A stretch of 64,000 bases of DNA from contig CM082576.2 in the NCBI GenBank assembly GCA_040954595.2, positions 10,109,129 through 10,173,128 of the forward strand. The letters are read 5' to 3'. Below are positions 16,801 to 59,583 of the stretch, one piece after another. Source of the stretch: Balanoglossus misakiensis (Eukaryota; Animalia; Hemichordata). The notes under the pieces were generated by a model that saw nothing but the letters and a program-made list of their open reading frames with translations, was not told the origin of the DNA and did no database searches. The first letter of the stretch is position 1; the number at the start of each line of letters is the position of its first letter. Position numbers and translations under genes: made by a program.

Positions 16801-17487
16801 CTTCTATGTTATTGTGTGTTAGTCTACTCTTATAATCAATGAGAGGAAATAACTTAAATTATTACAAACAAAATACATTCAGCAACACTGAAGAATTTTC
16901 TGTATATTTGCCCTAAATCTATGATAAAACTGAAGTGAAAGTAGGTCTTCTTGCAAATGTGTTGTATGTAGTAGTATTTAAATTGGGCATGGATATGCGA
17001 AATTGAGCTTTACATCTGAGTAAACGTCTGTCCATACTGATGGTGTGAGTCTTTTTGGTTCGAAACTTGTCTTGGTATGGGGATCATCATTGTGTTCTGG
17101 GGTCTACCTGTTCTGCTACGTACAGTACATGGATCATTTGACAAGCGCGCATGGTCCCTGGATAACTGGAGTTCGGGCCGTCATAGTGGGCATGGTTATT
17201 GGGGCATGCATATTACGATTGGTGGGCTAAATTGGACGGGGTGGGAAGTTTCAGAACATTGCAAAGAAACCTGGTGCTGCCGCCACAGCTTCCAGGGGAC
17301 ACACATTGATATTGCTGGGGTATCCTTTTTGTTCGCACAAGTTGTATTCGTGCAACACTCTTTCAAAATTCGTGTCAGATGCCGTTTCCAGAAAATGTTC
17401 GACATGTACCTCTTCCAAATCTGCAGCACTGTCACTGCCGGAGCTATCAGAATCCACTAAAACTCTGCTCTTCTTTCGTTTGCTCAT
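10817..17487 (-). CDS. RTF1: RNA polymerase-associated protein RTF1 (PAF1 complex, Plus3 domain), ~17 exons
   Basis: [26 protein letters not shown]|[10 protein letters not shown]..; [34 protein letters not shown]; Plus3 [23 protein letters not shown]; YINQRNR; [19 protein letters not shown]; C-terminus [16 protein letters not shown]. Confidence 0.97.
15076..15198. mobile_element. Short MITE-like element with terminal inverted repeats (Tc1/mariner-pogo-type CAGT terminus), in RTF1 intron
   Basis: Left CAGTCAAACCTGTCTGTAGTGATCA versus reverse complement of the right end CAATCAAACCTGTGTTAGTGACCA; no coding capacity; TA target-site duplication not intact. Confidence 0.6.
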
Positions 17488-17943
17488 CTCGCCTCCAGTA
17501 TTGTTAATTTCAAATGTCGACTGCGAGCTTGTAAAACTGAGACTGGGAAAAACACTGCGCGTTGGTTCAAAATTACCCACAAGCCCTTGCGACATAGGAA
17601 TTTGGTGGTTCGTAAATACTTTACTCTTAGACTGATAGGCTCGTACGCGATTATTAATAATTGTTTTTCGTTTTTCTAAGACCATATAAATATTATGAAG
17701 ATATAACATTTACCACGTCATCTCTTTGACTTAAATATTATAATACACAGCTGATTACCTTTTTACCCAATGAACTACAGTATCAAACGATCATAACTTG
17801 TACTCAACAAATGTGTGTTACAATCATATGACCCAAGTTGACCTATTTCGTCATTGACAATCATAGAGGACGTCGTAGGTATTATTCACAAGTCATCATA
17901 ACATTAAATTTGGAGCCTGGGTACAGAGTTCACCGTTTCACGA
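17488..17943. promoter_or_regulatory. Putative bidirectional promoter region RTF1/ZFYVE1
   Basis: Divergent start codons at 17487 (-) and 17944 (+) separated by 456 bp. Confidence 0.65.
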
Positions 17944-20900
17944 ATGTCGATGTCAACCTTAGCCTTTCAGAACTTTCAAGAAGCTGGTCAGATGGCTGTA
18001 CGTTCTAAAGGTAAAGCTCTTGGGGCGTCTAAACGTCTGTGTCAAGAGAGGTTTGCCTGCACCGGAGATCCAGCCGAGTTCGATTGTGACGAATGCGGGA
18101 CTCTCCAGTGTGTACATTGCGAAAGTAGGTTACACGAGTCGCCTCGGTTCGTTTTTCACGACCGTAGAAAGATCAAACTCCCGCCGAAAATACAAATGTG
18201 TGGCATTCACTGCCGTCCAGCTAGGGAAGCCGCGCTTAGATGCGAGCAGTGCGATGTTTTTATGTGCCAAGATTGTGACGCTAAGATGCACTCGAAGGGG
18301 AAGAGGCGAACGCACGAGAGAAACATCATACAACAATCAGGGGTTCAAAGTCCTCCCCGGTCACAGGTACACCATGTACCTGAGTCAGAGAGACACGGCT
18401 ACGGCTCTGATCATGACTCGACAGACATTTTTCAAACCTGCAATTTTGGTATAGATGATTTTGTCAAACCGTCGTCCCCAGTTCAGTCGAAATCTAGCCC
18501 TATAGCAATTCCAGGAAAGGCTGCTTTTATTACTCCTACTGCAGTTGCTATGGTTACACCACAGTCATCAAAGGCAAAGTTAGAAAAACTCGATGACGGT
18601 CATGCAGTACACCCCAGCGCCGTTGACGCCGCAATGCAACCACTGGACAGTGAAATGAAACAGATTAGTTTAGATGATGATGAAGATCTCTATTCAACAT
18701 CGCTTCAAAGTACAATGGTTGGGGCGAGTCCAGATGGTGCTAAGACCCTGACTGAACCAGGCCAGGAGCCTATAGTAGGAGGGTTCCTATTGGTTGATGA
18801 CACAGAAACTCTGATGGTGAGTCATTGGAAGAGATGTCAAAGGGTGATGTGCACATAGCTCATTTCAAAGGATGGCCATGAGAGAGGCCAGGGTTGAAGA
18901 CATGCAACAGAAATGTAAATTAGACAGAGGGCAGATGCGGATGCTCAAAATACACAATTGTTGGGGAGTGATGTTAGTGCTCCTGACTTTTCAGGGGTAT
19001 TAATGCACAGACACAGTACATACAATTAGTGAATAACAATAATACCAATTTAAATTGCTTTACAGGTTAAGAATGGAACCGATTTCCTGGAGGCACTGAA
19101 ATGCTCCGACGAAGCTGTTGTTAAAGTGGTGTCAATTTTCGGCAACACGGGGGATGGTAAATCGCACACCCTTAACCATACATTCTACGGGGGCAAGGAG
19201 GTGTTCCACACTTCAGCCTCCCAAGATTCCTGTACAATCGGAGTGTGGGCTGCGTACGACCCACAGCTGAATGTGATCACCGTAGACACAGAGGGCTTGC
19301 TGGGAACCACACCAAACCAGAACCAGCGCATGAGACTTCTTTTGAAAGTGCTGGCCGTGTCGGACATTGTCATCTACCGAACAGCGGCGGACAGGTTGCA
19401 CAGCGACCTCTACAGGTTTCTGGGCGATGCATCTAAAGCGTATGAGAAACACTTCACCCATGAACTCCAGGCCGCTGCCAAGAGATGGGAAATGGACGTG
19501 CCTCTGAGCACTTTGGGGCCAGCAGTTATTGTATTCCATGAAACAACGCACACAGAACCCTTAGGTTCGTATACCTGTTCCTGCAGCAGAACATTCATTA
19601 CTAATGCAGTCTTTGTTTTTTTCCCCCATCATGTTCTGGAGTGATTCAGCACATTTGTAGCATTTGAACATGGAATGAACATATTTTGTAGCAGTCAACA
19701 TATATGTGATTACATGTAGTCGATGAGATCTATAGTTGTCAGAGTACTGTTTGTGTGATCTCAGCCCTCTGTGACAAACTGGAGAATAATTTTTGTCCTT
19801 TTGCATTCCTAGGGTATGGCAAGAGCAACAAACGTCCCGAAACTCAACTGAAGGAACGGTTCAGACAGGAAGGCAAGAATATAAACGCTTTCAGCTCACT
19901 GCATTATGTCGGTATAAGAAAGCAGAAGAAAGGCACCGACTTCACAGGTTTGCGAAAAGTCATCCAAGCGCAAGTGACAGATAGCTCAGTCAGATCACCA
20001 AGATCACCTGTCATTATATATCAAGCACTTAAGGTGAGTTTTGCCTGTGGATTTTTCCTCTATACGCCTTTCTCATAAAGAGGGCGGCCTTCCAAAACAT
20101 GGCGTCGTCTCCAAGGAGACAGTAGATCCGAGAAGGTGTTATTTGCAATACTGTAGTTATTATGCACCATTTGCGCAAGTTTCTGCTCAGACATTAATGT
20201 GGACACAACTGCACCAGCTCTAGGATCAGTACCAACAGGAAGTGAGAGTAACTCTTGTTTATTTGATTTCAGGTATTGAATGATAAATTTAATGACACAA
20301 TTAAGGGTGAAGTTCCCAATACTTTTCCTGACGAGTATTTCACCTGCAGTGCTCACTGTCTTTCGTGCAAGTAAGTCCATCTAAATATCATTTTGCAAAG
20401 TGGTCGTTTCTTCCTGAACTGAATCTATTTGTTGTATACATGTGATTTGCATTAGCATTTCAATGATGTGTATGGTAGATACCCCAGACCAACCAGCATT
20501 ATTCTAGTTTGTGCATTTATATACCGGTATTAATATAACAAATGCTGTTTGTCTTTGTATTGGAATTATTAGAATGTAACCCAAGGTGTCAGTCTTCATA
20601 ATGTTCATTGACCAATAAGTACATATACAGGATTTCTATAGTTCTAATTGCAGTTACATCAAAAGTAAAATGATCTTTTTTTTCTGCCTGGTAACACAGC
20701 AATCGCTGCACCCTCACAATGAACCATATGAAAGACAAAATTGGCCACGACTCGGATAAAAGATGCAAATATCAACACCAATATGACAACAATGTCTACA
20801 CATGCAAGGTAGGTCATTTGAACAAACAAGACAGTGACAAATTCAGTGTCTGTTTTTTGCCCACCATATCCTTCTTTGAATTTCCCATATAAAATGATGC

Positions 20901-24761: not shown

Positions 24762-27119
24762 GGGAAATGTCTGTGTGTAGCATTTACGAGACACTGATAA
24801 AATGCTGTTTAAAAGTTACACATTGAAGCAGGATTTTGTCTGTCATCATCTGTCATTCATTACTTATTGATGTGGAACAGACATGAGAAGAAGTTTTTGT
24901 TGACTGCAAAATGGCCAGTTTATCATGGCATTTGTTGTGAAAAAATAACCGGGATATGATGCTTGTGTAAATAATTTCACCGATGTATTTCTTGTGTAAT
25001 CCCCCTCTAGTAAACGCAAAGACGTGTTTCAGTTACAACATATATAAGCTTACAAGTAAAAGTTCTAAAATTTGCAGTACTACCCATGATTTTTCAATGT
25101 CAAATACAGTCTTCACGAGTCTGTGGTAACTACGATGTAGAAAAGATGAGAAAGAGAAAGGTGTTTTTCAATTGTCATAAAAAGTTGTTGTAACATAAAA
25201 TTGTAATCCAATTTGTACAGCCCGGTGTGTGTATCTTATTGTAAAATACAATTTAGGCGAAAATGTCCAAAAACAGATGGACGAATGAAACCCAGCATTG
25301 AATTCTGTAAATCGCTGTGATATAACTAGTGTAATGTAAGATAGTGAAATTATTACATTGTAAATGCACAAATAATTGTAAGAATAAGAAAAGTTGCTTT
25401 TGCAGAATATTAGCCATGACAAACTCAATAAACTCTGACGAGAAATATGTATGTTCTTTTTTGTCAACTTAATGTACCAAAATGATGTCACTTGCGACCT
25501 CACTGATTGAGTTTCATAGTTTATTGCTAATGCGCATATTTCTAATATTTTTCCAAGAAAACACTTTGGGTGTAATCAGGTCTAGACTGCTTTAACCCTG
25601 ATACTTCTGTACAATTTGAGCTACCAGGGAGAAAAGTGATGCTATTTTTCTCGTCCTCGTAGCAAGATGCGTGGGCATGTGGGTCGGTGTGTTGGAACAA
25701 AGGAAACGAAAAAAATAGAAACATGAACTTTTGGTTTAGTGTTTTGTGATATATTGCCGTGATAGACACTGAGTCGACCGTCACGACTCGAAAGTGAAAC
25801 TTCCCCATCAAGTTCCACAAACGAAAGAAGTGTTTGTTCTCACCGCACACTGTAGTTGCGGCAGTATTTCAAGTTGGAGTTGTGATCAAGCAGCATAGCA
25901 ACCCGTTTTAAACAAAATCTTAATATTTCTGGGGAATTTTGTTTCGTTTCGTTTCGGGGTAATGGTGGAAAACATCACTTATTTACCTTAAACTTAAAAA
26001 CGGGAATGATTTAACGTTCGAGATATTGCCGCGTATCACTAGTATTTTCCATACCATGTTTCCGTCTTATATATAAGATTGAATTCCCGGCCGGGGGTCC
26101 TTGATTAAAAAGATCGCAATTATAATTCCCGCAATGATGCAAGAGTAACTGGGAAAGAATGAGGGAAAATGAAAGGCGAATTTTAATACTGACTACAATA
26201 CAATACTGGACTTTCCCTGCACCACCGATGATAATTTGCATAAACTCATGCGTAGGACGGTTGATGAATTCAACGCTCGGGTTACTTTTCATAATATAAA
26301 ATAGTTGTGATGTTATCGGGTATATTAATTTTTACCGGCTAACAACTAGTTTGTTATTCTACGGTGATTAAAAAGACGACCGCTTCCTGACCCGGGCATG
26401 GTAATTCGGTCAGACGTACACGTATCGCGAGTTTTTTTTCACAAGTTGCGCAAAACACGACATTCAGCGGAACCTATTAAAAAGACACGTGCCAGATCAC
26501 GTCTTTTGAAACACGAAATGACACATCACAACGATTGTCAAGGGTGAGAACGTCCAGACCCGCGAACCAGATCAGAATCATCAAACGAGTATTCATCTGT
26601 TGAAGTGTTCGGATGCGCAATATATGAAAACGTGTAAATATGTTGTACTACTCAAAATGACATCGATTGGTTTCGATCAAATTCTTCCCGCTTTTAGGTG
26701 GAACAGAATGATCGATTTTTGACTGTTTTAAACAATGCGATTGATATATAATTTAATTGCCGGAGGTTATATATTCGATTCAAATGAATTTTCTTTATCC
26801 TTTGATGTAATAAACATATATCGAGTATTTTTAGTGCCACATGGATGACGTGTCAAATTAAAGTACCAGGCATATTGCCCTGGTTTGATACCACGTAAAC
26901 TGCGACTGCGCACTACAGTGGGATGGCCAATAATACCGTAATTTTGACTATCGTCATTTACAGCACTCGTCAACCGGCGATGTGAGTGGGTGTGATCGCT
27001 GGAGTCTTTTGATTCCCATCTTTGCTATTATTGGCAAAAAAACGTACGGTGTGTTTTGTTGACTGCAATATAGTATATAGGGCTAGACATTGTATAGTGT
27101 CGATAAGCGTATTAACGTC

Positions 27120-28124
27120 ATGGGTTACGGGACTCATCGATTCGTCGCCACACCGGATCAAAATTTGCTGTGCGGAATCTGCAGCGGCGTAGTGGAGGAT
27201 GCTGTTTTGACCAGATGCGGCCACTCGTTCTGTGAAGCGTGTCTGGACACGTGGCTGGCACGGCCAAACACGGGCAACTGCCCGGTGTGCCGGGCCCTTG
27301 TCGTCAAATACCAGGTGAGCCCGGTCTGGTCCCTGCGTGCAATAGTCGGAAGCCTCAGCGTCGAGTGCAAAAATCGTGACCGGGGCTGCCAGATGATCGT
27401 CAAGCTGGAAACTTTGTCGTCGCATTTGGAGTCGTGTGGTTACACACCCGTGGACTGCATCGGTTGCGGCGCGACTCTGAACGGATTTCAGCTAGCGGCT
27501 CACCAGATCAAGTGTCCGAGAATACGTTCACTGGGATCATCATCTTCGGTCGTTACCACGGGAACCAACGTTACCACCCAAGGAGATGATAAAACGTCGG
27601 CCGGTGTCAGACTTTCCGAGTATAAAGAAATGTTTTCAAAAGTCGCTTCCCTGGAAGCTCAGCTAAAAGCGATGAAGAGAGATTTGGACACCACAAAGAG
27701 CAAAAACTCGAAGTTGGAACGAGAGCTCTGTAAAGTCAGACTAGACTTAGAGGCAAAGAGAGACGAATGTGAAGTTTTAAGAGCACAAAATCACGATCTG
27801 TATTCCGAGTACGACTACGGGTATACCCCGGAAAGTATTGCTCAGTTATCGCTGTTCATCGCCCGAAATTTATTGGACAAACCGGAATACGTCGAAAGGG
27901 ACCACATCTTCAACTGCATCAAGCGATCGTACGAGAATTTCGCGCGCTGCGGCAATGAGTACGAGCACGACGTGCACATGTTAATCGCCACGGCGTACGC
28001 CAGCGACTGGTTCAGCGAAAACCAGCGGATTAACTGCCACTGCTGGCTGCAGAGCATCGCCAGGTATCGCAAGTACGCCGATCTGCATCACGCCAGGGTC
28101 AGCAGTCGCTGTTCCCCGACATGA
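27120..28124 (+). CDS. Single-coding-exon RING-type E3 ubiquitin ligase (RNF41/RNF151/PDZRN-like RING + TRAF-type zinc fingers + coiled coil + unknown C-terminal domain)
   Basis: ATG at 27120: MGYGTHRF..LLCGICSGVVEDAVLTRCGHSFCEACLDTWL..CPVCR (C3HC4 RING), CKNRDRGC..HLESC, CIGC..HQIKC, heptad region KVASLEAQLKAMKRDL..; 334-codon uninterrupted ORF. Confidence 0.88.
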   Translation: MGYGTHRFVATPDQNLLCGICSGVVEDAVLTRCGHSFCEACLDTWLARPNTGNCPVCRALVVKYQVSPVWSLRAIVGSLSVECKNRDRGCQMIVKLETLSSHLESCGYTPVDCIGCGATLNGFQLAAHQIKCPRIRSLGSSSSVVTTGTNVTTQGDDKTSAGVRLSEYKEMFSKVASLEAQLKAMKRDLDTTKSKNSKLERELCKVRLDLEAKRDECEVLRAQNHDLYSEYDYGYTPESIAQLSLFIARNLLDKPEYVERDHIFNCIKRSYENFARCGNEYEHDVHMLIATAYASDWFSENQRINCHCWLQSIARYRKYADLHHARVSSRCSPT

Positions 28125-28154: not shown

Positions 28155-28215
28155 AATGAATGAATGAACGGGTAGATGAATGAATGAATGAATAAATAAA
28201 TAAATAAATAAATGG
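28155..28215. repeat. (ATGA)n/(AATA)n compound microsatellite
   Basis: atgaatgaatga...aataaataaataaataaataaa immediately 3' of the RING gene. Confidence 0.85.
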
Positions 28216-29554
28216 ATGGGTGGCTATAAATGTGATACTGGTACCCGCGATTGGTACTCTCAGCATGCAGGAAGATGCGTGTATCATGATCATCGCTGTA
28301 TAAAAGTCAACGTGACTAATCATTATAACATGACTTGCGATGTCAAGAAATGTTATCCAATACTCTACAGTCACAGACCAACATACCGTAGTTCCTGTGT
28401 TCCTACCTGACCCAGATTGATCAAATCTGTATTTGTGTATTTTAAAATTAATCCTCCTAAATCTACTTCTCTATAGATAATGGCGCCGAACTGTTTGATA
28501 AATTGCCTATATGCAGTATTTCAAATAAATTGGGTCGTTGACATTAATTTGGGTGTAATTTGGTGAAAGTATTATCGATAGTTTTCATTTTGAATTGTAC
28601 ACGTAACATGCATTTTTGTATCGCGGTTGTTAAATATTTATTTGGTATTTTTTATGTAAATGACATTCCCGGATGTGCTACCACTCATTTTTGTGCCAGC
28701 TGTTTTCTCTTAGAATTTGTAAATGAATAAAACATATACAATGGTGCATGTTGGTTAGCTTTTGAATCGATTCATAAAAATGCGTGATTACAATAGCTCC
28801 CAGTCATTGCGATGACTATACAGTATTGAATATGGCATTCATTTTCTGGGCCTTCCAAACTCCCGGAGAGGGGGGGGGGGGTCTTTAGAGTAGAAATTCA
28901 ATAAAGAACAAATGAATGGATGTAAGTAGCGCATAGGCCTTCAATTGGATTCCAGTCTTTGTGTGTAATTGTGTTTCATAACTCGGGCAAGGCGTGGCAG
29001 ACTGACTGACTGACTGATTGACTCTATACCTAATACCCGACACTGAATTTCACCAAATTACAATTGAAAATATATACGCTAGCGTGGTTATTACTGTGGA
29101 TGGGTTGAATTCCTTACTAAACGTGTGTCGAATTGTATGAACCGTTTGAGGTGTGGAGTGATGGGGTCGAAGTAGTAATATGCTGGAAAATTAACCAGGG
29201 TTCGGCTCCCAGGCCTCTCCCAAGAGAGATATCGTATACTAATGGAGACAGCTAGACTGGAATTGTACCGCAGGTATCACTGCGTCGACCTTGACACGGA
29301 AAACTGCCGTTCGATCACTTTGCCTTTAATGATTTGGTGACATTGCACACACGTGAACATGGTATAGCTTCAGGCTCGTAACGAGCTACTCTGGTCACAA
29401 GATTCAGTAATAACAGAACAAAACTCATTCAGCACACAAACGTTGGAAATCCCATGCCCGAGGGAGAGTGTACATGTTCTCGGAATTCTCCACCAATGAT
29501 TTATATTAAAGTGTGATTATTTCGTTGTGATTTGCGTTTGTCATGACAACAAAT

Positions 29555-29890
29555 TAAGCTCAATCACTCGGAAAGGCATCTTCGCCCGCAGAGGTCTTTA
29601 CCCTCCGAAAATTAGGGAGGCTGTAGTCGAGCTGACGACTCGTGCGATGTCGGAAAGGTAATCTGTAGAGATTCGGATCGGGTAAAAATAACCAACCTGG
29701 TCCGAAGACTTGCGGGGCAGATTTTTCCGAAATGCCCCACCGGTTTACCCGACAAAACTTGTTAAGATAATCCTTTCCACCTCCGCAGATTTTTGAATCA
29801 TATAAAGCGACAGTACGCAGACTCAAAAACTACTAAAATGTAGAAACGGCCTCAACGTTAGTAGCCTATTTCACAGTGGCAACTGAGTTA
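29555..29890 (-). ncRNA. Candidate ~335-nt highly structured RNA of unknown family
   Basis: About 12 mutually nested helices found by eye, ends pair with each other, C(UUCG)G tetraloop, non-WC pairs are G.U on the minus strand. No expression evidence; see findings. Confidence 0.5.
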
Positions 29891-31993
29891 TAATCTTTAA
29901 TAAGAAAATTTAGCGTTCCTGGGCTCGAATAGTGAAAAGAATGTCTCATATATAACAACTGCTTTTTTATGTTTGCAAGATATGTCGACTCGTGATCATT
30001 TGCCTTAAGTTCGGGTATATTTTGCCGGCCGTTTACTAATTATTTGTAGTCAATATCGTAACTATGGAATTAGCCATTATTAGGCCTTTACGTTTAATTT
30101 TGCGAATAAAACGCACATTTCGGGGAACTGCCAAAGGTTGAACATTTGCATTAATGCACTGCGTGTAATTTCAAACATCCAATATGCAAGTTATGCGCCT
30201 ATGTTTTGGAAAAATACTGTGTGACGTCACTATTAAAGGCAATTTATATCGTTTTTCGTACAGTAATTTGAATAAGCTTATGTGGCTTATTTAATTAAAT
30301 ATGCAGATTAGACGAATATTGATAACCATTACTAGATGTCTGTCAGTAAAAATCATATCTTAGTGAAGTCAGTATCTTCAGCATGTTTTCATCAAATTTG
30401 GTGCAGTAAATCAGATGCACAAAAATTCAAATGAGCAAATATGCCAAAATGATTCTCAGTTCAGCCAGATATTTGACAGACCCACGTAGGCTGCAAATCT
30501 TGAAGTAAAATATCTCACCATTTCTGTCATTATCTACAGGTCAGTAACAAATGAAATGATGCACTAAGGGTTAATAATCAAATTTATTTTTCATCACAGC
30601 TTTCTGATACACGTAAACCTTTTAAAAAGTGGGCGAAACCAAGAATTCATAAATGTATACATCTTCTGAAGTACAAACTATTATGTTTTGACAAAGTGCT
30701 GTGGTATCTGGCCCATTTAAAATGGACTTCATATAAATTAATTATTCAAAAAACACCACACAAAAAAACTACAGCGCTTACATTACAACCTTCTGTTCAA
30801 ATAATTTAAATTCATTTTAAAATAACATTCTGTTAACATTTCTCCTGATATTTCATATTTTGTGGAAGAATGGGCACCTGTATCAATTTTGCCAGACTTT
30901 CCATGAGTAAATTCATATTTCCATGACTTTCTCCGACTTTCCAGCAGTGGTATAGAATTCCAGAGCTGTTTGAAAGTGTGAACAATTATTGAATACAGCC
31001 TGGATTTCGTTTTCATAAATACAAAAATTAACATTAGGCAGTGTTCGGGTTTTCATGGGGACCTCAGTCTCTTCTGAAAATCTAAAATAAAGTTATAGTT
31101 CAATCAATGTGAACACTAGCCTCCAATTTCCAAACTGCAAAAAACTTAAAACGAATAAAATCACCTCAAATTTACATATGGCTATCAAAAACTCTTACCG
31201 GTGCACTTGTTTGTCATGTGACCATCCAGTACTAGTGAAGACCTGTGATTGGCTAGCGCTCCACTTTTCATTAATAACTGTTGCTAAATTTACATAGACA
31301 ATAATATACATGTACCTTTAAACTTCTATTTGCATAATTTTACACTTTTAACACTGAGCAACAAAACATATTGTCATCAATTAAAAAAACATGAATGTTT
31401 GCTTTTTTCTCTTGAAATAAAGCAGTAAAAAACCCTATGTGAAAATGTACTCAAACAGAAAAATTAAACCAAAAATTTCGGTGACTTTATATGACTTTCT
31501 TCTTTTGTCTCAGCAACCTGTCCCCAATGTGGGATTCTCACTTCAGTGGAATTTCATGACAACCAGAGTCTGGTTGCCAAATGTTTCTGGTAGTTGGATC
31601 TTGGCATGTACATAACACTCTTTAGCAGAATGTAAGGTTATTAATGCCCATTTTTCCGTGTTCCTCCTACCAATCTGATCAGTCACACTTCTGTATTTTT
31701 CTCACTGCACATGTACAAGCCTGGGTGCTTCTAGTGAAGGTATCCCATGGATTTTTTTTTGCATGAAACATTTTGACTGCTTGCATCATGCCACAGACTC
31801 TTGGATCTGCGATTGCATGAGTGACAAGTTTGTGGGCGAGACACACATGCAACATTTGAAAAAATCCGAGCCAGACCATGATGCCTGCAGCTGTTTGCAT
31901 TGGTAGTACGGGCCCAATGGGAAATGCCACTTCTCACACCACAGCTGTTGTGTCGATGTTGGGAATGGACTTGATTCTGCCATACTGTGATTC

Positions 31994-34900
31994 TTACTCC
32001 AGCAGCTTATCCATATCATAGTCATCTTGAAAATGATCCAATCCTGTAAAATCAAAGACATTTTTTATAACATTAAAGTGTGATTGTGCTCACATATCAT
32101 GGCTTTTCAGAGATAGAGAGATCTTCCAACAGCAATTAAAGTCAATTTGCATGGAAATCACACACCGAATATTAAAACAATGATTCCCATGATCAATGAA
32201 GTATAAAAGCCTTTAAGACGCAAAATGTGTCCCCAGTAACAACGACACACTTCCACAGTGAAGAGATGTGTCTCACCTGCATGGGCCATCAACTGCACAG
32301 CACTGACTGGCTCTTCCTCCTCCTCATAGTAATCAGCGTGCAATTCTTCCTCGTCCTCTATTACCCGTGTGTCTTCAAAGACGACTGGACCGCTCTCAAT
32401 AACCAAGTCTTCATCCTTGCCTGCCTGCTGTAATCGTGGTTCCGAATCCAGGCGAGGTCGCTTTGCTGTACTGCCCTGCACACATGTAAAAAATCACAAA
32501 AGTCAGCGTGAGTGGTTTCAGTTTATTTCAAAGTTCAACTCACCTCATCTTTCTTTTAGAGATTCTTTGAACTGTTTTATGCTGGGTTGGGGGGGGGGGG
32601 GGATTACTTCTATAGAAGAGCAATACCGGTGTATGAAGTACATTTGTATCCCCATCATAGGTTATATGTAGTAAGTTGTCACATTGATTGTTCCGATACA
32701 TTCAACATTCATCTGCAATAATTATACAATTTGTGAACAAAGATTAGAGCCAACACATCAATAAACTTCAATTCGTGAAAAGGTTACATTAATTTTTGAC
32801 CCTGTCTGCCATACTTGTGGGTCACTCAGTAAAACCTAAATTTAAAAAAAACCCCACAAAAATCCCCCTTCTTCCCGGTTCCAAGACAAGGTACATGGAA
32901 ACAAAAATCTAATGCGACGAGCAAACAGACCCTGCATGAATAGTAACCAAATTCCCATAAAAATATTCCAAATGATATCAAGACGCATTAGCAAAAACCT
33001 CACACTCTGACAGCGGCATCCTTTACAAATGTTATTGCATTCAGCTTGAAATGAAACATTCGCAAAGAATCAGCCAACACTCATAAAATCTGAATAAAAA
33101 ACACCAGACTGCCGAGTTGCGCGGACCCGCTTTGTGTCTGCATACCGATGTCATTTCAGCTGATTTAGCCCCGACAGGAAATTTCATGCAGCTACACAAT
33201 GGTAGTGGGCCATTTACGGCTCACAGACAATAACACATTTCCCGGCTCCTGACATGGAGAGCATTCCATTAATTATGCAACAATGCAGAATGCTTTTTAA
33301 GCACCCAGGGTTTTCTTTCCCTCTTTGCATCATTGATGCTCGACACAGCTGGGCATGGCAGTATCCTTCAACTGATATGTATACATGCAATACTGTGAGA
33401 CAGCCATCAAAGCATATTAAATATAATAGCTATAAGCCTTCGAAAAAAAAAATTGCCAGAATTATTGATTTTCTAAACATCAGTGCACATATCTTTCTTC
33501 TTACCTCTTCACGATAACCGGGTTTTTGTATCCGAGATCTGCTATCAATTCCAAGTCTAGCTTTGCTCCTCTGTGGAGGCAAAGGGGAAGTCAAGACAAC
33601 CGGCTGCTCAATGATGATGTCTGGGGTTGGTTGTGTTGCAGTCTCTCGTTTGGGAGTGTTGGCAACAGATCCTTCCCTGTTCAGATCTCGCAGAACATCG
33701 TAGTTGATTTTGCTGGATATCTTCTTTTCTTGCAGCATTTTTTCAATGGCTTCACCGGCAGTGTTTGCTTGGATTTGAGACTTTTTCTTGTATTTTCTTT
33801 TCTGTTTTTGGTAAAAAAAAATTATATTAATTGAGAAACATGCTGGAAAACTCTGGATAACATTTTCCTTGACTGAACCTCTCCTGCATTGTGTACTAGA
33901 CGATGGAATGATGATAATAATTTGCATAGACTGATAGAATCACTCGGTGTACTGACCTTTTTGGGTTCTGGTTTGACTATGCCCAGTTCTCTGTCCCTCT
34001 GCTCTTTTTCTTCCTTTTCTGTGACGAAAATAAATGCCAAAACAAAGACTGTATAATATTGTTCTGTGTTAGAGGTGGTACAATGCATCACACTTCAGTG
34101 ACATGACAGCTTATTGCCTGAAGGGATGGACGAAGAGATTGAGCACTATCTCTTTCACAGAAACAATAGCGTGCATGATTACAGATTCAAAGACACATTT
34201 CTTTCGCCATACGCAACTTTACTGCTAGGCCTAGGAAGCCAATACTATGGTAATATAGCTTGATAGCAATTGGACTTCCCTGCCGGTCACGTTTACCTTT
34301 TTGTATTTTTAAGTATTCAGCGTTTTCTTTTGTCCATATTTCAGTTTTGACTTTCACTTCATCTTCACTCAGAATAAACTGTAGAAAGGAATAAAACAAA
34401 AATTTCATGATCTCGTGGGTGCATCCAAGGTAAAACATTCAACATTATCAAAGTTTAATCATTACAAGATGCTCATGAATACACTTTGAATAAATCTATT
34501 TAACATCTTGCATTGGATGTGTGAGGGCGCCCTCTATATTAAATTCTTTCGTTGATGTGACCCACTACCAACGACAACACGTCCGAGTACTGAAATCAGT
34601 GTGAAATATTTCTGTGCCAACTTTTCAGGGAGAATCTACACGTACCCTTTCCAACTCGCTGTCGTCAATGCCGGTCAAATCTAACTCACCACTTTCTTCC
34701 TCAAGAGCTGTGTGCAAAGAGAAAAACACTGGTATAAGGAAGAAAGTTTTTGACAGAAAAGAAACACAGTGAAAGCATTCCTTAGCAACCAGCAGTCAAT
34801 ACAGTTCCACTCAGCTTTTTATAAAATTCCCCGGTTGCACTGTACCCATCACGACCTGCCTCGGCATACAAATCTCAATGATGTTAACTGTTATAACCCT

Positions 34901-37900
34901 CAGACATAGCTCAATCTGGTGATAATCGGCAAGAAAACTGTGTCTATGAATGAAAGTGACCCATGAGAGGTGTTTTCAGCAAGGATGATGTCACTCTGAA
35001 AACGAATTTGCAGTTCTGATAACAACCTGTACATCACCACAATTTTTTTACAGAAACTTTTTGTAACGAGACAAATTCAAACTTACGTTTGTCTTCGGGT
35101 AACATCATACACTCCTCTATAGTTTCTTTCAGCCCCAGACTGAGCGCCGACGGTCTTGGACCTGTGAAATACGGTGCCTCAAAAGTGCTATTTGGTCCCT
35201 CAAAAGTGTTATCTATCAAAAACTCTAAATCTGGGTCTTTGATTTGCTCGCCGTAATTTTGACTGTTTGACACAGTTGCGACAATGTCTACGGCGTCTCC
35301 CTGAGCAGATATCGTCTCATTGTGGTCAGTGTTGGTCCCAATATTACTGTCCAATACCGCAGAATCCGACTGTACAGTCTCTTGTAAAATTTCGCCGTCT
35401 ACAAATTTCTGTGCTTCTTGCAGTTCTTGGTCCGCGTCAGCCGCTGATTGTGAGGTGGTGTCTGCATTATCTGGAAGGGGGGAACAAATTAATTTATTGA
35501 AGGGATTTCCATGATTGTAGGATGAAGGTTTTGTCTCCATAATTATAGAAGTATCATTGAGTTCACCCTGAGCAAAATATGTAGTGATGGTAAGGCAAAA
35601 AGCGGTGGTGTTAAATTTATTATTTCACTTACCTTTTGTTCCCTTTTTACAGAGTTCTTTTTCAATTTCCGCTTGCACACATGAAACTTCGTCTTCAAGG
35701 TCAGGAAGTTTGTTCATTTCTTCCAACTTAAGTGCGAGGAGAACAAGAAAGAAGAGAAAAGCTTTCTGTAATTTTTGGCAGCATCTACTTTGGCAATGCT
35801 ATGTGCATAGGCGTAGACAACAGTACATTGTATAAATTCTGCAAGGGTTCATAACCAGCTGTAAATACACTCACCTGTGCCAGCTTTGCTCTTCTCCTGG
35901 ACTGTGTAAATGATGGAGGATCTTGTTCTTCTTCCAAGTCGATCTTCTGGAATTCATCGATGGTCAGTTGGCTGGATGGCGTTTCTTCGAATTCTGTCAG
36001 TCTGCATGGGACATGAGAAGCAAATCAACATGTTTTAATGGTAGTACATCTTCAGACTGTTCGTAAACTGAAGACAAACACTGAAATTGGCTCAAATTAA
36101 ATAATTATGCCTTTGCTTTGAGAAGACTTTTAACTTTTGATACTGTTTATTGAATCAATCTCCATGATACTCAAAATATTGTAGATTCCACTATGCAAGC
36201 AACATAAAGCCCACATAAATTCAGCGTGCTGTTAATGGTAATACCGGTATCTCTTTTGTCACACAATACCTTTTTCTCAGTGTTGCATCACAGACTTTGA
36301 CAACTCTAATGATCTCTTTTTGTGTCCTGTTGAAATCGTGGAGGCGTGCTGCAACAAGTAAAGCTGAAAAAAATACAAAATATGTTGAAAGACCATAAAT
36401 TAGGTTCATTTTATTCACTACTCAAAATAGACAATAAGTCATTGTCGGGGTGCCATAATTTTAAAGTGTTTGTCACAACTGTACTTACCCGCGCCACACA
36501 ACCCCGAAGGTCTTCTTCCCATGTGCATCCAATCTCTCTTCATTCTTGATACGAGTCGCAAAGCTGTCATCGACACCTCGTGTGTTTTCTCACTAAACTC
36601 TAACTTGTGCGCAAAACGTGCAATATACAGGCATGGGTCTGAAAAGGGAAAAGGGAAGCTATATTTATGGATTCTGAAAATATCAGAACACAGAATGTTT
36701 GCAGAAGTTAGTTGTACAGAGAAAAATAAATTTAATGTATCATCGGAAAAAAAACAAGAACTTTATTTCAGATACACCAAGAGATTTTGCAGAAGTTTTA
36801 CGAAGAAAAATAACGGATTATCATGGGGAAAAAAAAAACGCTTATCTGATAAATTGGATCGGATGGGACACTACACATGATTCCTGATTTTCTATTGTCA
36901 GTTTCACCCTTCAACTTCATATTAAACTATTATGCATATCATGCATATTTATTGGAGATTCCGCTATCCCTGCCCCATAGCATTGTGGGTAAACGAATAA
37001 ATTAAACATGGAGACCTGGTATTGTGATTGTTTCTGTTGATCAACTCTAGGTCTCAGTCGTGAAATAACAGTAGCCGCTCCCACTTTTTTACGTTTTGAA
37101 TAACAGACACACAAACTTCCCGGGTGCATAAACTTATCTGTTAAACTCACTTCGCGGAGAAGGGTACAGATTTACGTTACGACGGTCGTGTAAGTTGCAG
37201 CCTTCGTTGTTCGCGGTAAAATATCGACTCAACAGGCAGCGAAGCGAAGGCGAGCACTAATCTGTCGGCTACGACTGTCTGCTCAGCAGTGTAATGTTCA
37301 TGTATTCATTGGAAACACGGCTTCATTAGGGCATTATCGGCAACCATGGAGTTGGGTCTTGATAAGCATTTCAAACAAGTAGTTTTACCAAACAATGAAA
37401 AGCTCGTTCGCAGCATGATGGACGATTCCCAGATAACACCACCGGCGACCGTGCGGGAGAACTGGCAGGCAAACAAGGCAACTGTCCGCGAGCGAAACGC
37501 CTACATGTTTCAAAACGAGCTTATGTGCGATATATATTTCCTCGTCGGGTCGAAGAACTGCGCCCAGAGAGTTCCAGCACACAAGTACGTGCTGGCAACG
37601 GGCAGCTCGGTCTTCTACGCCATGTTCTATGGCGACCTGGCCGAGAATCGGTCAGAGATCGAGTTACCGGACGTTGAACCACAGGCATTCACCACTTTGC
37701 TGAAGTAAGTGTTGCAACCATTCACGGAAGGCATCTCTGAACTTTCCACAAGTACAGTCCATTCTGAATTGAATTATTCTCATCCTATGACATGACATGT
37801 AAACAGAGACCCTAGAGTCTATGATGGAAAGCACTGCCTGATGAAACTCATACTCCATCATCAAAATTGTTTTGTATTTGAGGTGCATGCTTTCTTTTTT

Positions 37901-40900
37901 ACTTTTCCAGGTATTTATATTGTGATGAAATTGACCTGACAGCAGACTCGGTCCTGAGTACACTTTATGCTTCCAAGAAGTACATAGTCCCTCATCTTGC
38001 TAGAGCTTGCGTTGCCTACTTGGAAACCAGCCTCACGGCAAGAAACGCTTGTATCTTCCTTAGTCAGAGCAGGCTGTTTGAAGAACCTGAATTGACCCAG
38101 CGCTGTTGGGAAGTTATTGACGCCCAAGCCGAGGAGGCACTGAAATCGGATGGTTTTTGTGACATCGATCACACAACGTTGGATTCTGTGCTGTGTAGAG
38201 AAACACTGAACGCCAAGGAGAGTGTCATATTCGAAGCTGCTTCTCTCTGGGCGGAGGTGGAGTGCGCAAGACAGGATCTCAAGCCATCGCCGGAAAACAA
38301 ACGCAAGGTGCTCGGAAAGTCGCTCAGTCTGGTCCGTATTCCCACGATGCCGATAGAAGAATTTGCGAACGGTGTGGCTACGTCCGGACTACTGACCCTC
38401 AAGGAAACCACTGACATCTTCTTGCACTTCACGGCACGCAGTAAGCCCAAGATCGACTTCTGCTCCAAACCGCGGATAGGTCTGAAACCGAGGCGCGTCC
38501 ACAGATTCCAGTCGTCCGCGTACCGCAGTAATCAGTGGCGGTATCGCGGCCGGACAGACAGCATCCAGTTCGCTGTCGACAAGCGCATCTTCATCGCGGG
38601 TTTCGGCCTGTACGGCTCCAGCTCGGGGGGACACGAATACAAAGTGCAGATCGAATTAAAACGTTCGGGTAAAATTCTCGGACTGAGACACACGCAGTTC
38701 TTCTCGGACGGCTCAAGCAATACTTTCCCGGTTCTGTTCGAACATCCAATCCAAATAGACCCCGATGCGTATTACACAGCTAGCGTGATACTGGACGGCA
38801 CCGAGCTCAGTTATTTTGGCCAGGAGGGACTGACAGAAGTGTCGTGTTGTGATGTCACTTTTCAATTCCAGTGTTCAACTGAGAGCACGAATGGGACAGG
38901 AGTGCAGGGTGGACAGATCCCAGAAATGATCTTTTATGCTTGATACAACTGTGCTACATATGAATATATTATATATACAATTATGTTTTTGGGTGTATTT
39001 GCCATGAGAATACACTCATCATTTCTGGGCTATTTTTGAGTTTCAAGATTTTGCAGAAGTTACCACATGTATTTACCTGTAAACTGAAATACTGATGGAG
39101 TCCTGGAAATTTTATTTGAATCAGTGACACTCATTTCTATGATGGGACTCCTGTGCTAAATGTACATTTACACGATGTTTAGTCAAAATGAAAGAATAGT
39201 GTGTACTGCGAATACAGCTATCTGAAAGTGCAGCTTTCAACCTGCCAAGTTGATAATTGCACATGTTGGCAGGAAAAGACTATAGATGATGAACTCAATG
39301 GAAGCACTTCCGACAAAGGAAAGGTGACAAATAAGTAATAACTGTGTGAATCAAAATTGTTGATCCTAACTTTTCTGTAACAGTCTTGTAGTGCACACAC
39401 AAGAATTCCATTTTAAAGTATTTTGGTGTTAAATTTATTATTTCATGTGAGGTATTTAAAAAAGAACACAGTCAATATTATCTTTACACATTCATACACA
39501 AGTCCCTCATGTGAACTGACACCTCATCACAATTTACAAGCAATGTGTTCTCTCATCACAACCATTAGTACCCTGGTACATAATTATATGTAATGTTATT
39601 TTGCTTGATTTACAATTGATGATTAAAGTCTGGTTTGATCACAGTGTTTACATACCTATTGCTGGAAGATTTATATGAAGCTCAGTTGACAGCTTCAGGT
39701 AAGTTTTACCCAGTACATAAACATTAACCTGTAATGTGAAATGATAAAATTGAACATAAAATTAATAATGACACTGACTAGTCTACATTTGCACTCTACA
39801 TTGTGTGGATAAATTTATGATGGAAAACCATGATAATGCCCTACAGGTTAACATTCATTGATCTAGATTAAAAAGTGATCACAACATAGAAAGGTATATG
39901 GCATATCTTGTTCATTTGAAATGTTTACTTTTGCCATGGAAACTACATACCTGCAGAATGTCACTGAAATCTAGTAACATATCTGAGAATCCAAATGTTA
40001 AGGAATGAACAATAATGAGACACGCTAGCATTTGTGAATGAGCCATTGGAGTCATTTCTAAAGTTTTGTACCTTTGACTGTGGACCCAAGGGGACTGTAG
40101 CTTTACCCTGGTCATCACCATGGTTATGCCCAAATCCATTTTTTGCTATGGACCAAAATGGGAGTGATCATGGAGAGCGCCCTCAAGTGGCCAATCTTAT
40201 ACACTGTATTCCATGTTCCCATGGAATCTATCTACAAAATAACAACTGAAGAAACACTCCTGCAACACACTATTATAGTAAGGATACGTGGTGTGCCTTC
40301 AGTCCTACACACTAAGTACAAACATGAAGCAACAACATGGTTGGTCTTTCTGCCACGTGTTAATCTCTTGGAGACGGCCATTTTGAAGAAGTTATACGCT
40401 GTATCTATGCAGTGTTGATTCAATTTCAGCTGAGCGCCAAGAGCTTGTATCTTTCTCTTACCTGAAATTTAAAAAAAGGAAATTAAACAATTTATTCTTT
40501 ACTTTAATGAAACATGCATATCATTACAGATCAATCATACAGATGATCAGAACTGGTTTCTGGTGCATTAGTAAAACATTTAAACACAGACAGCAAGCAA
40601 ACAGAGCAGAATGATCTTGGCACTCACCATTTTGAAGTGTCACTGCTCTTGATTCTTTTCCAAACCCGTGATGGAAACTACTTCCCAAGGAGTGGACTTT
40701 TCCACCTGAAAAGACAGAGAGACTTATCCTAATATAATACCAAATTAAACATACATTTATAGTAGATTTTCTCTACAATAAGGTACTTTGATATTTTGTA
40801 TCAGATTTCATTGCCCATACCACTTGACAATGTGCTTTGAGAGAGATGGTGGGGGGGGGGGGGGTAAATAGAAGTGGAGATAAGGCACAGCTAAAATTAA

Positions 40901-53603: not shown

Positions 53604-56600
53604 ATCTACGTCTGCGAATAGTAAGGTGAAGGATTTATGTTGAATTTTGTACTATTTTATCACAGAACACAAAAAATGCAATATCACAGAAAAGGGTAGA
53701 AAAAGAAACACAAGAAAACACATATCAAAGGGGCATGAGCTTATGATCAACGGCCATTTTGTAAATGTCAGCTTTTGTCTGTTTTTTTTCTGGTTTATTC
53801 GTACATTAAATTTATTCATACTCGAGTTGACGTTGAACTACGAATACCAAATGCGCGTTCTCGTTCCGTAAATGTTTTTTCTTCAGATACGATCACGTGT
53901 CAGGCGTAAAAACAGCACACCTATACTGCTTCCTAGTTAACCCAAACAATGTTCTATCCGTGCAGACAGCAGTGCAAAGAATTACTTGACGGGGCATCCT
54001 CTACCTGACTTGACTTTATGTCAGTAACTTCATGTTTGATGACATTTATAGATTACAAATCTGACATTTCGGACTGATTCCAACTACTTAGACGTGTGCG
54101 ACTAGTGAAAAATCTTCTTTCAGGAATACATTCTATGTGAAACTGTTATTCTTGTCCAGGAGAGACTTGGGTCTTGAACGACAGAAAAGGTGCAATAATT
54201 GCTTCATACTTGCCGCACACCAGACAGTTATCTGAGTTATGTGCAAATTTACCCTTTGTCTCTCAAACGACAGAAAGAGCGACACCGGTGTTCAGTGGAT
54301 GCCTGAGATTTGTGGATTCTTTCCGCTGAATACATCACATTCTGAAGTTGCTCATGTTTTGCATGTTTGCATTGATTCCAGCTCGTCATGTCAGACAGAA
54401 AGATGCACTATGACCCGGGCTATGACACTCAGTGACGTGTAAACTGTGTACACATCCACGTGTACACGAATATTCAAAGCCCTGGAATGATTTGATTGCT
54501 TGACCGGCACTTGTTGACAGCTGGCTCGCTCGGGAATTACAAAGTGTAGATTTAGTTGTCCCATTATCGGTTCATAAATGCAAGTGTTGATAGAGTCAGA
54601 ATACGATAAACTTGTAACACGTGGAGACATGCCATGTATTCGGCGTCAATACAAACACACAATATGATCGAGTCAAGCTGATTTTCGACGGAACTTTTCT
54701 CGGCATAATAAAACCGCTCACTAAAAATTCAACACGCTGACGATTTTCGTCTCGAGAAATTCAATGACTGCGATTGGAATGAACACCATGGTGTCCAATT
54801 GTCTCAGTCGCAAATTTGCGTGAACGATAGAAATTTCTCACTTCGAGAGACTACAGCAAGCCTTGTGCAGAATTTGTTAATTTGTTAGTCTGCGGTTTCA
54901 TATCGACAAACGAAGGACATGTACTTGTATAGGCTAGAATGATAAAATATGACGGTGTGATCTAATGCGTTATTCGTAACGTCGTGTACATTCAGCTATG
55001 ATGACCCTTCCCCTACAGTCTTTATTGTGGAACTGTTCAAGATCTATCATGAAAATATCATCAACCAACTACTAAACTGAATCCTCCGGTACTGATTTGT
55101 GTTCATAGTTGTTAGACTTCAAAAGACACGATTTGGATAAAAATCGACACCTGGACACCGTGACCTTTCATACCAAGACATAACTATACGGCTGATACGT
55201 GCAAGGGTGTTAGAAATGGCGAGTGCCAATTGAAAGTTGCTTGGATGATTCCATCAAAACTACACGCGTCGCGTGTTTGAGTATCAAGTCACAGCTGCAT
55301 ATAAGATAACCAGGCTAATGCCTATTTATATATATATATTTATTCGAGTAACACACCACTCTGGAAGTCCTGGTGTACTCTGCGCCTTCTTAGATTTTAC
55401 CTAGCCAATTTACCAGGCCGAATATTTTTACATCTACGCATGTGCATTCATCATCTCCTTTGGATGGCTTGTGTTTTCTCTTGGTCGACATATTTATGAC
55501 AAAACACATATTTGGAGAGCATCGACGATCTCCGCGTGCCCTAAAACGAACGCATAATAAACGAGCCTGTGGCAAATATGTGTTCAGTCGTAAACATATC
55601 ATTTCTGATCGTAAGAAAAGAAAACAAAGTTCAAAGGGAGATAATGTCTCTGTCTCTGCCCACCCCACCCCATCTCAGCTGGAAGGGGGGGGGGGGGACA
55701 TAGAAGAATCTTACACGGTAGATAAAAAGCAGATTCTGCTGAAAAATAGAAATAATTCAAATGTTCGCTAGACAAATTGTAACTTTTTATGGACCTTCGA
55801 TCGCATCACATACATCTAGGTTCTCTAACATTGGGTTACACTGCGGGAATTGTATAACTTAAAAAGAGGAAACAAATGCATGGCCTGAAAAAAACTAGTT
55901 TTCATGTAAACTTTTCACCATCACTAAAAAGAAACTAGTTATCACAGTTCACATAGGTCCACTCAGAGTTGTTGAACCAATGTTCACGCTTTCTATACTA
56001 TCGCCACAGCATCGTCATCGAAAGATTCCACGCCGTGTTCGCGTATCCAATGATATCGTGTGTTGACATCTCGCATGGTCCTTTTATTGGTGTAGTACAT
56101 GTATTAGTCTCAACACAGTCCCTGTAATAGAGGGACTGTGGTCTCAAGAATTTGGTGATTGACCGAGTGCTTAGAACCATATTGTCGGAGTAAACGGGAG
56201 TCCTCCGATGGTAATATGGTGGGTTTTTTTTTATCGTACCAGGGCCTGAGTTTTGTCAAGGACACCGGTCAAGAATCCCGTCGCGTTCCAGGTGGAAACT
56301 GGGTGAGGGGTCGACGCCAATGCACCGCGTGTAAATGAAAAGTTACGTAATTATTTATTCAACAGGTGGTTCCCTATAACCGCTGATCTGCACACATGCC
56401 TACGCCCTCCTGCGTCCACATGAAAAGAGAGGGCTTGTGGTGAAAGTGTGGCGAATATGTTTAACAGTCACGGCGCAGAGACAACTGTAGGAATAACGAC
56501 AAATAAACGAAAGTTCAAATATTTTACACAAAGGACTAGACTGTACAGAATGGCACCCGGTATGCTGGTTGCAGTAAATAAACCGGTGTCGAGTCGACGA

Positions 56601-59456: not shown

Positions 59457-59505
59457 ATCCTCCTCCTCCTCCTCCTCCTCCTCCTCCTCCTCCTCCTCCT
59501 CCTCC

Positions 59506-59583
<78 letters not shown>

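What the first reader, a model, noticed from the sequence alone, without database searches (positions are those of the whole stretch)
29555..29890. Unannotated ~335-nt multi-domain structured RNA candidate on the minus strand between the RING gene and BRF1
Seen in sequence (minus-strand RNA, + coordinates): terminal helix CUCAGUUGC(29887-79)/GUGAUUGAG(29567-59), extended by AGGC/GCCU. A junction then carries hairpin CUACUAA(29864-58)/UUAGUAG(29836-30), hairpin UUUUUGAGUC(29829-20)/GAUUCAAAAA(29799-90) and long-range helix CUGCGGAGGU(29788-79)/ACCUCUGCGG(29595-86). Inside that: arm GGAAAGG(29778-72)/CCUUUCC(29658-52), AUCU/AGAU and UCGGGUAAA(29752-44)/UUUACCCGA(29686-78), capped by GUGGGGCA/UGCCCCGC and a GUC-UUCG-GAC tetraloop (29709-00), plus hairpins AGUCG/CGACU and CCUCC/GGAGG. 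All helices nest without conflict. The seven non-WC pairs I counted are G.U on minus but would be A.C mismatches on plus, which points to selection at RNA level rather than a DNA palindrome. Inference: internal U5 runs argue against Pol III; an Sm-site-like AAUUUGUUG and a further hairpin follow the 3' end; a TATA-like TATATA lies at ~29948-29953. It lacks the diagnostic motifs I know for RNase P/MRP, SRP, 7SK, U3, spliceosomal snRNAs and a TTAGGG telomerase template, so it may be a new ncRNA class or a structured mobile RNA.
Basis: partly seen in the sequence, partly recalled or inferred. Interest (0 to 1): 0.8.

Follow-up and report, generated by a model that had tools for sequence, protein, structure and literature searches.

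The report
Candidate folded RNA gene, acorn worm
Between two protein genes of a likely acorn worm lies a 330-400-base stretch that is predicted to fold into a branched RNA, matches no catalogued RNA family and has small-nuclear-RNA-type promoter words upstream, so it may be an undescribed nuclear RNA gene, but no transcript or relative was found and a chance fold remains nearly as likely.

Summary
The helices are in the sequence, and most long ones dominate the predicted ensemble (pair probability 0.6-1.0). Stability is modest: z -2.3 minus, -3.4 plus. The core 29585-29830 ranks 2 of 1040 window-strands, about the expected extreme for a hand-picked stretch. The G.U strand argument fails: plus folds with 8 G.U, minus with 7. 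The host is likely a hemichordate. No Rfam match, and defining motifs of telomerase RNA, RNase P/MRP and 7SK are absent. New points: the element sits between two convergent 3' ends in CpG-rich DNA, with an octamer (30151), ACTACAA (30050) and TATA (29955) upstream on minus. It carries a perfect branch point UACUAAC plus acceptor (29863-29830). The Sm-like site is 8 of 9 and is predicted to be buried unless the 3' end is trimmed. Internal T5 runs argue against Pol III. No relative turned up in any collection, so covariation is untested. Best reading (0.4): a stand-alone Pol II snRNA-type scaffold RNA. Rivals: chance fold in regulatory DNA (0.3), non-coding exon (0.15), transposon remnant (0.12).

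The parts
29559..29887 (-). Folded body closed by terminal helix P1 (29887-79 with 29567-59, 9 bp, 3 G.U)
   Evidence: pair probability 0.62-0.98 depending on ends and temperature
29839..29877 (-).
   Evidence: G29866-C29848 0.64-0.89; loop 57-68% unpaired
29830..29863 (-). Perfect branch-point word UACUAAC (branch A 29858), pyrimidine tract and tandem AG (29833, 29830): looks like a 3' splice site
   Evidence: 1 of 5 TACTAAC in the window, the only one with 9 of 12 pyrimidines before the AG (others 5-6, or no AG)
29789..29830 (-). Hairpin UUUUUGAGUC/GAUUCAAAAA (10-11 bp)
   Evidence: probability 0.96
29586..29788 (-). Long-range helix CUGCGGAGGU/ACCUCUGCGG enclosing the central arm and two small hairpins (29640-25, 29620-02)
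   Evidence: probability 0.69; core 29585-29830 z -3.43, 0 of 200 shuffles
29652..29778 (-). Central arm: GGAAAGG/CCUUUCC, AUCU/AGAU, UCGGGUAAA/UUUACCCGA, GUGGGGCA/UGCCCCGC and a cUUCGg loop
   Evidence: probabilities 0.89-1.0 except the UUCG stem (0.22); cUUCGg with a stem of 3 bp or more is 1 of 3 such among 19 CTTCGG sites in the window
29547..29555 (-). Sm-site-like AAUUUGUUG, 3 nt after P1
   Evidence: 8 of 9 to PuAUUUNUGPu (consensus from 10.1101/857334); about 0.2 unpaired with downstream sequence, 0.82-0.90 if the RNA ends at 29540
29521..29553 (-). 3' hairpin that sequesters the Sm-like site
   Evidence: U29551-G29523 0.76-0.99
29504..29902 (-). Possible outer helix UAUUAAAG/CUUUAAUA (8 bp) that would extend the unit to about 400 nt; as DNA an 8-bp inverted repeat with TTAA at both ends
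   Evidence: I8; 0.85-0.93; z -2.71
29948..29955 (-). TATA-like TTATATAT; would put a start near 29925
   Evidence: start position inferred from usual spacing
29925..29935 (-). TCACTATTCGA, a PSE-like word (resemblance to vertebrate PSE recalled); a similar word lies at 60998 (+) in another octamer/TATA cluster
   Evidence: 2 matches, 0.57 expected, 12 of 100 shuffles reach 2; weak
30044..30050 (-). ACTACAA, ZNF143/Staf-type word (motif recalled)
30144..30151 (-). Perfect octamer ATGCAAAT, 197 nt upstream of the TATA-like word
   Evidence: octamer plus ZNF143 motif make up the snRNA distal element in human (PMC3499247)
30222..30229 (.). CRE palindrome TGACGTCA (1 of 2 in the window), at the edge of the CpG-rich block
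27117..28124 (+). Flanking RING-finger gene (single ORF), converging on the element; AATAAA at 28191-28900
30583..32043 (-). BRF1 last exon: stop about 31996-31994 (read by eye), 3' UTR and first AATAAA at 30588, about 700 nt upstream of the element

Best explanation
This is likely a stand-alone non-coding RNA gene on the minus strand, predicted to be made by RNA polymerase II from an snRNA-type promoter and to fold into a branched RNA that would work as a nuclear protein scaffold rather than as an enzyme. Shown by the sequence: nested helices, upstream octamer, ACTACAA and TATA words, CpG-rich intergenic position, UACUAAC, an Sm-like word, and absence of catalytic or template motifs. Inferred steps: (1) Oct and ZNF143-type factors drive transcription from about 29925 or 29891; (2) the RNA folds with P1 closing a 5' hairpin, a second hairpin and a long central arm; (3) after 3' trimming to about 29540 the Sm-like site opens and would take an Sm ring; (4) the looped UACUAAC would dock SF1 or Quaking-type proteins, making the RNP a scaffold or decoy for branch-point-binding factors. 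Step 4 is the weakest.
For: Core z -3.4 to -3.8, rank 2 of 1040 window-strands. Long helices at 0.6-1.0 and several abut with no linker. Octamer with both a TATA 150-260 nt downstream and ACTACAA within 150 nt occurs at 4 of 30 oriented octamer sites (3 loci); one of them points at this element. CpG o/e is 1.21 over 29400-30240 against 0.37 over the BRF1 3' region 30240-32000. The element lies past the first polyA words of both flanking genes. cUUCGg loop, Sm-like word and UACUAAC all read on minus. No coding signal. Human snRNA promoters use octamer plus ZNF143 (PMC3499247); SF1 binds UACUAAC in the lncRNA Gomafu (PMC4255692).
Against: The stretch was hand-picked, and z near -3.5 is about what the best of about 1000 windows gives. 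On the unbiased grid it is the plus strand that ranks (5th and 12th), and no minus grid window of this locus is in the top 25. At full length it ranks 8 of 378. Direct 7-mers are as enriched as inverted ones (10 vs 3.6 each, 25 of 1000 shuffles). G.U counts do not favour minus. The Sm-like word is imperfect and buried, relaxed matches occur 72 times in the window, and a strict match lies on the plus strand at 29788. In vertebrates PSE plus TATA specifies Pol III (PMC9652321), which conflicts with the internal T5 runs. 24% of windows have CpG o/e above 1 and the RING gene is also CpG-rich. No clear 3' box downstream on minus. About 30 motif types were scanned, so some hits are expected. No homologue.
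Confidence: 0.4

Rival explanations
1. Unmethylated regulatory DNA (promoter or enhancer) with repeated short words in both orientations; the fold is a by-product and no structured RNA is selected.
For: Direct repeats AAAAATCTGC x2, CCTTTCCGA x2, GGGTAAA x2; direct and inverted 7-mers equally enriched, 8-mers enriched only as direct repeats (21 vs 236 of 1000); both strands fold; octamer/ACTACAA clusters also occur near 26200 and 60940 with no known RNA downstream of the latter.
Against: Inverted 6-mers are more enriched than direct (5 vs 63 of 1000); a long nested arrangement with abutting helices is not expected from scattered sites; a promoter between two convergent 3' ends needs a product.
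Confidence: 0.3
2. A non-coding exon entered at the acceptor 29833/29830, either of a spliced lncRNA or a minor alternative last exon of BRF1; the 5' hairpins would regulate acceptor access and the folded core would be exon.
For: Perfect branch point, 25-nt spacing, pyrimidine tract and tandem AG; the most stable core starts at the second AG; donor-like words AAC/GTAAAG near 30091 and AGG/GTAAAG near 29602 (read by eye).
Against: BRF1's AATAAA at 30588 and the CpG step at about 30240 lie upstream; splicing from BRF1's last donor would give about 10 codons; the 89-codon frame has no coding signal; P1 would lose its 5' strand.
Confidence: 0.15
3. Remnant of a non-autonomous transposon or SINE whose internal repeats or ancestral RNA give the fold.
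For: 8-bp inverted repeat 29902-29895/29511-29504 with TTAA at both ends; B-box-like TATTCGAGCCC at 29931, 2 mismatches.
Against: No second copy in the 64-kb window; terminal repeats short and AT-rich; no A box upstream of the B-box-like word on minus and no poly(A) tail.
Confidence: 0.12
4. A highly divergent copy of a known RNA missed by Rfam (RNase MRP/P, telomerase RNA, 7SK, U5/U11).
For: The order of helices can be drawn like the RNase P/MRP core, and the ends recall U5 (both recalled, not from a call); AAAAUCUGCG fits part of the recalled RNase P CR-I (2 mismatches).
Against: No Rfam match even on truncated sub-stretches; the P2 pseudoknot has only 5 bp; no GARAR pentaloop, CR-IV or matching CR-V; no telomere template within 2 mismatches; a single GAUC.
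Confidence: 0.03

Closest known systems
Sm-class snRNAs (U1, U11, U5 layout)
   Same: Closing helix followed within a few bases by an AAUUUG-type site; octamer and ZNF143-type words upstream (PMC3499247 passages; 10.1101/857334 passages).
   Different: About twice as long; no splice-site-pairing 5' end, no U5 loop 1; site is 8 of 9 and lacks a separate stable 3' stem-loop; TATA-like word present; no Rfam match.
Fungal telomerase RNAs with an Sm site (TLC1, TER1)
   Same: Long multi-arm RNA with a terminal helix and an Sm-like site at the 3' end (TLC1 Sm role: PMC7151599, search listing only; the rest recalled).
   Different: No template or pseudoknot; hemichordate telomerase RNA is known and is a 436-nt H/ACA RNA (PMC8480181 passages).
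RNase MRP / RNase P RNA
   Same: Similar size; the helix order can be drawn alike; UAGGCUAC recalls the human MRP P3 strand (recalled).
   Different: Lacks the catalytic pseudoknot motifs, GARAR pentaloop and CR-IV that define them (PMC13184271 sections 8-9); not Pol III-compatible.
Gomafu/MIAT lncRNA
   Same: Carries UACUAAC, through which Gomafu binds SF1 (PMC4255692 passages).
   Different: Gomafu has a tandem array; here one copy in a compact predicted fold, next to a real-looking acceptor.

Membership tests
Animal telomerase RNA | Template for the telomere repeat | tested here: not met
   No CTAACCCTAA within 2 mismatches on either strand of 29440-29990; no TTAGGG or TTAGG 1.3-repeat in 28500-31000
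Animal telomerase RNA | Pseudoknot, CR4/5 with P6.1, box H/ACA (PMC8480181) | tested here: inconclusive
   Looked for by eye only; no convincing H-hairpin-ACA end; no invertebrate TR model was available
RNase MRP RNA | CR-I/CR-V pseudoknot with adjacent 3-bp P5 | tested here: not met
   Best CR-I-like word on minus has 2 mismatches and sits in a tetraloop hairpin; best CR-V-like word overlaps P1 (motifs recalled); no Rfam match
RNase MRP RNA | P8 GARAR pentaloop and 6-nt CR-IV (PMC13184271) | tested here: not met
   No GARAR pentaloop in any fold; the bases before the candidate P2 strand do not start A-G (read by eye)
Nuclear RNase P RNA | CR-I and CR-V forming P4; CR-II/III | tested here: not met
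   Only 2-mismatch words, none placed before the P1 3' strand; no Rfam match
7SK | Paired GAUC-GAUC in the 5' hairpin (PMC2995076) | tested here: not met
   One GATC only, at 29679
Pol III type 3 gene | No internal terminator and a T run after the RNA | tested here: not met
   Two T5 runs inside on each strand; no run of 5 or more T downstream on minus to 29300; the window's tRNA-Thr has only T4 behind it
Sm-class snRNA | Sm nonamer PuAUUUNUGPu | tested here: inconclusive
   8 of 9; mostly paired unless trimmed
Sm-class snRNA | Adjacent 3' stem-loop of 5-7 bp | tested here: not met
   Sequence 3' of the site folds to -2.0 kcal/mol or weaker; the only nearby stem uses the site itself
Sm-class snRNA | PSE and distal element | tested here: inconclusive
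   Octamer and ACTACAA present; hemichordate PSE consensus not available; echinoderm U6 promoters diverge strongly (10.1101/2023.01.09.523328)
Sm-class snRNA | TMG cap and Sm ring | not testable with these tools
   Needs immunoprecipitation
U5 snRNA | Invariant loop 1 at the tip of stem-loop I | tested here: not met
   No match within 1 mismatch (motif recalled); no U5 hit on truncated ends
Box C/D, U3, SRP, hammerhead | C and D boxes; SRP helix 8; hammerhead core with stems | tested here: not met
   No CUGA on minus, no helix-8 word; CUGACGA on plus lacks stem II (read by eye); no Rfam match
SINE or MITE | Many genomic copies, target-site duplication | not testable with these tools
   No genome held; no second copy in the window
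Protein-coding exon | Codon bias or homologous protein for the 89-codon frame 29829-29563 | tested here: not met
   Score 0.04, reached by 27% of shuffles; such an ORF arises in 6.5% of shuffles; no Pfam; two hits are summed 20-residue matches to repeat proteins; none

The most novel reading that the evidence does not exclude
An undescribed animal small nuclear RNP: a Pol II, Sm-bound RNA of 330-400 nt built on an RNase P/MRP-like helix order but without the catalytic core, which displays a perfect branch-point sequence to capture SF1/Quaking-type splicing factors. It would be a new snRNA family in invertebrate deuterostomes that homology searches have missed.
Probability: 0.12. Interest if true: 0.85.

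Novelty: new variant of a known kind. Interest (0 to 1): 0.4.

Why it matters
New families of structured nuclear RNAs are rarely found in animals, because annotation depends on Rfam models built from vertebrates, flies and yeast. A real snRNA-type gene of this size with no family would show that invertebrate deuterostomes keep RNPs unknown from model species, and it is cheap to test with existing hemichordate genomes and total RNA data. At present it is a candidate only.

Tried and rejected
Whole genome: not held, so copy number is untested. Sequencing runs: no RNA holder listed; this is no evidence either way, and no reads could be laid. Rfam: 7 searches; the only match at a gathering score in the window is a tRNA. 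Homologues: an exact 23-mer gave 0 matches in metagenome contigs and 0 in prokaryote genomes; blastn of phages gave none; viral patterns gave 4 and 1 loci with no similarity beyond the pattern. Synteny: 80 loci fetched with the RING alignment (scan stopped at 10 of 64 parts); 4 are full-length orthologues with 0.4-2.2 kb downstream; none resembles the element (best blastn E 0.2, nhmmer E 2.4). Coding exon reading rejected. G.U strand test rejected. U5, MRP, group I intron, hammerhead and SL RNA likenesses came from memory and failed motif or Rfam tests. Earlier scan notes: nothing on this stretch. Ten paper searches listed no description of such an RNA; none was a sequence search, the library lacks most subscription papers, and no supplements were opened (TR and MRP alignments there could bear on membership). 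No covariance model was built, since only one sequence exists.

Full report
Setting. The window is animal DNA with introns. The RING ORF left of the element is 68% identical to a Saccoglossus kowalevskii protein and 38-54% to the other full-length hits, so the host is likely a hemichordate. BRF1 lies on the minus strand (Pfam BRF1 and TFIIB zinc ribbon). Its last exon stops near 31996 (read by eye) and its first AATAAA is at 30588. The RING gene has AATAAA words at 28191-28900. The element therefore sits between two convergent 3' ends, past the first polyA word of each.

Observation. Every helix named is present, with one single-base clash at 29864. The long helices have mean pair probabilities of 0.61-1.0. 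AGGC/GCCU (0.15), CUACUAA/UUAGUAG (0.26) and the UUCG stem (0.22) are minor. In the 5' part the ensemble prefers a different hairpin, 29877-29839, with UACUAAC in its loop. An outer 8-bp helix (29902/29504) could extend the unit to about 400 nt.

Is it more than chance? For 29555-29890, z is -2.29 on minus (3 of 100 shuffles) and -3.40 on plus (0 of 100). Against the window it ranks 8 and 13 of 378. The core 29585-29830 has z -3.43 (0 of 200) and ranks 2 of 1040 window-strands, but its ends were chosen after the fact; on the plain grid the plus strand ranks 5th and 12th and no minus grid window here is in the top 25. Nested long helices beat most shuffles (10 and 2 of 300), yet at least 6 of 758 real window-strands score as high, and high-confidence pairs are ordinary (29 of 100). 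Direct and inverted 7-mers are equally enriched (25 of 1000 each). So the locus is among the most folded in 64 kb, but not beyond what picking the best stretch can give.

Strand. The G.U argument is circular. The core's own best fold has 7 G.U in 75 pairs on minus and 8 in 70 on plus. A neutral test on Watson-Crick cores gave 2 G.U, 1 A.C and 2 other bridged pairs. What favours minus is other evidence: lower energy (-83 against -74), the cUUCGg loop (1 of 3 with a stem among 19 sites), the promoter words, UACUAAC and the Sm-like word.

Promoter. Upstream on minus lie TGACGTCA (30229), ATGCAAAT (30151), ACTACAA (30050) and TTATATAT (29955). Octamer with both a TATA 150-260 nt downstream and ACTACAA nearby occurs at 4 of 30 oriented sites, 3 loci; the criteria were set after seeing this locus. 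Human snRNA promoters use an octamer and a ZNF143 motif (PMC3499247, passages), and in vertebrates a TATA box selects Pol III (PMC9652321, passages). Pol III is unlikely here: each strand has two internal T5 runs, minus has no run of five or more T downstream to 29300, and the window's tRNA-Thr has only T4 behind it. A PSE could not be verified; echinoderm U6 promoters diverge strongly (10.1101/2023.01.09.523328, passages). CpG o/e is 1.21 over 29400-30240 and 0.37 over 30240-32000, but 24% of 379 windows exceed 1 and the RING gene does too.

Known families. Rfam gave nothing near a gathering score for the region, the element or its two ends. There is no telomere template, and hemichordate telomerase RNA is a known 436-nt H/ACA RNA (PMC8480181, passages). 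There is one GAUC, whereas 7SK needs a paired two (PMC2995076, passages). The GARAR pentaloop, CR-IV and catalytic pseudoknot of RNase MRP (PMC13184271, sections 8-9) are not met (motifs recalled). From memory, the helix order resembles RNase P/MRP and the ends resemble U5; neither survived testing. The Sm-like word matches 8 of 9 of PuAUUUNUGPu (10.1101/857334, passages). It is about 80% paired unless the RNA ends near 29540, lacks an independent 3' stem-loop, and relaxed matches are common (72 in the window).

UACUAAC (branch A 29858), a pyrimidine tract and two AGs (29833, 29830) form a textbook acceptor, the only such among 5 TACTAAC in the window. An 89-codon frame follows it, but it has no codon bias, no Pfam match and no credible homologue. 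The word may mark a non-coding exon, be a docking site for SF1 or Quaking (Gomafu: PMC4255692, passages; PMC13004596, search listing only), or be chance, since about 30 motif types were scanned.

Relatives and expression. None were obtained. The collections hold few animal contigs, so this says little, and covariation is untested.

Verdict. The best-supported reading (0.4) is a stand-alone Pol II snRNA-type gene whose RNA acts as a protein scaffold; the fold, Sm binding and SF1/Quaking docking are predictions. A chance fold in regulatory DNA (0.3), a non-coding exon (0.15), a transposon remnant (0.12) and a divergent known RNA (0.03) remain. It is not filed in any known family. Interest 0.4: a fair candidate that one comparative alignment or one total-RNA library would settle.

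Noticed in passing
window 60934-61045 (+): Second promoter-like cluster: ACTACAA fused to an octamer, another octamer, TCACCTATTGGA and TATTTATAAG 34 nt later. No Rfam RNA downstream; product unknown.
   Followed up: partly
window 26192-26241: Third octamer plus ACTACAA cluster, about 900 nt upstream of the RING ATG, in CpG-rich DNA.
   Followed up: no
window 2162-2234 (-): tRNA-Thr(CGT), followed only by a T4 run about 25 nt downstream.
   Followed up: partly
window 37295-38943 (+): BTB-BACK-PHR gene (BTBD3/6-like) nested antisense within BRF1; the same nesting is recalled for human BRF1/BTBD6 (not checked by a call).
   Followed up: no
window 55420-55760: Most stable 336-nt stretch of the window, with a 28-nt inverted repeat, 82% complementary; possibly a MITE.
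   Followed up: partly
window 17250-18860: ORFs that read like RTF1 (-) and ZFYVE1 (+) start head to head about 200 nt apart (names recalled, B-box confirmed).
   Followed up: no
window 27087-28124 (+): Single-ORF RING/SINA-type gene conserved in hemichordates, echinoderms, molluscs and lancelets, with a conserved C-terminal region that has no Pfam match.
   Followed up: no
window 59458-59639: (TCC)n joined to (TCA)n microsatellite, about 61 units.
   Followed up: no
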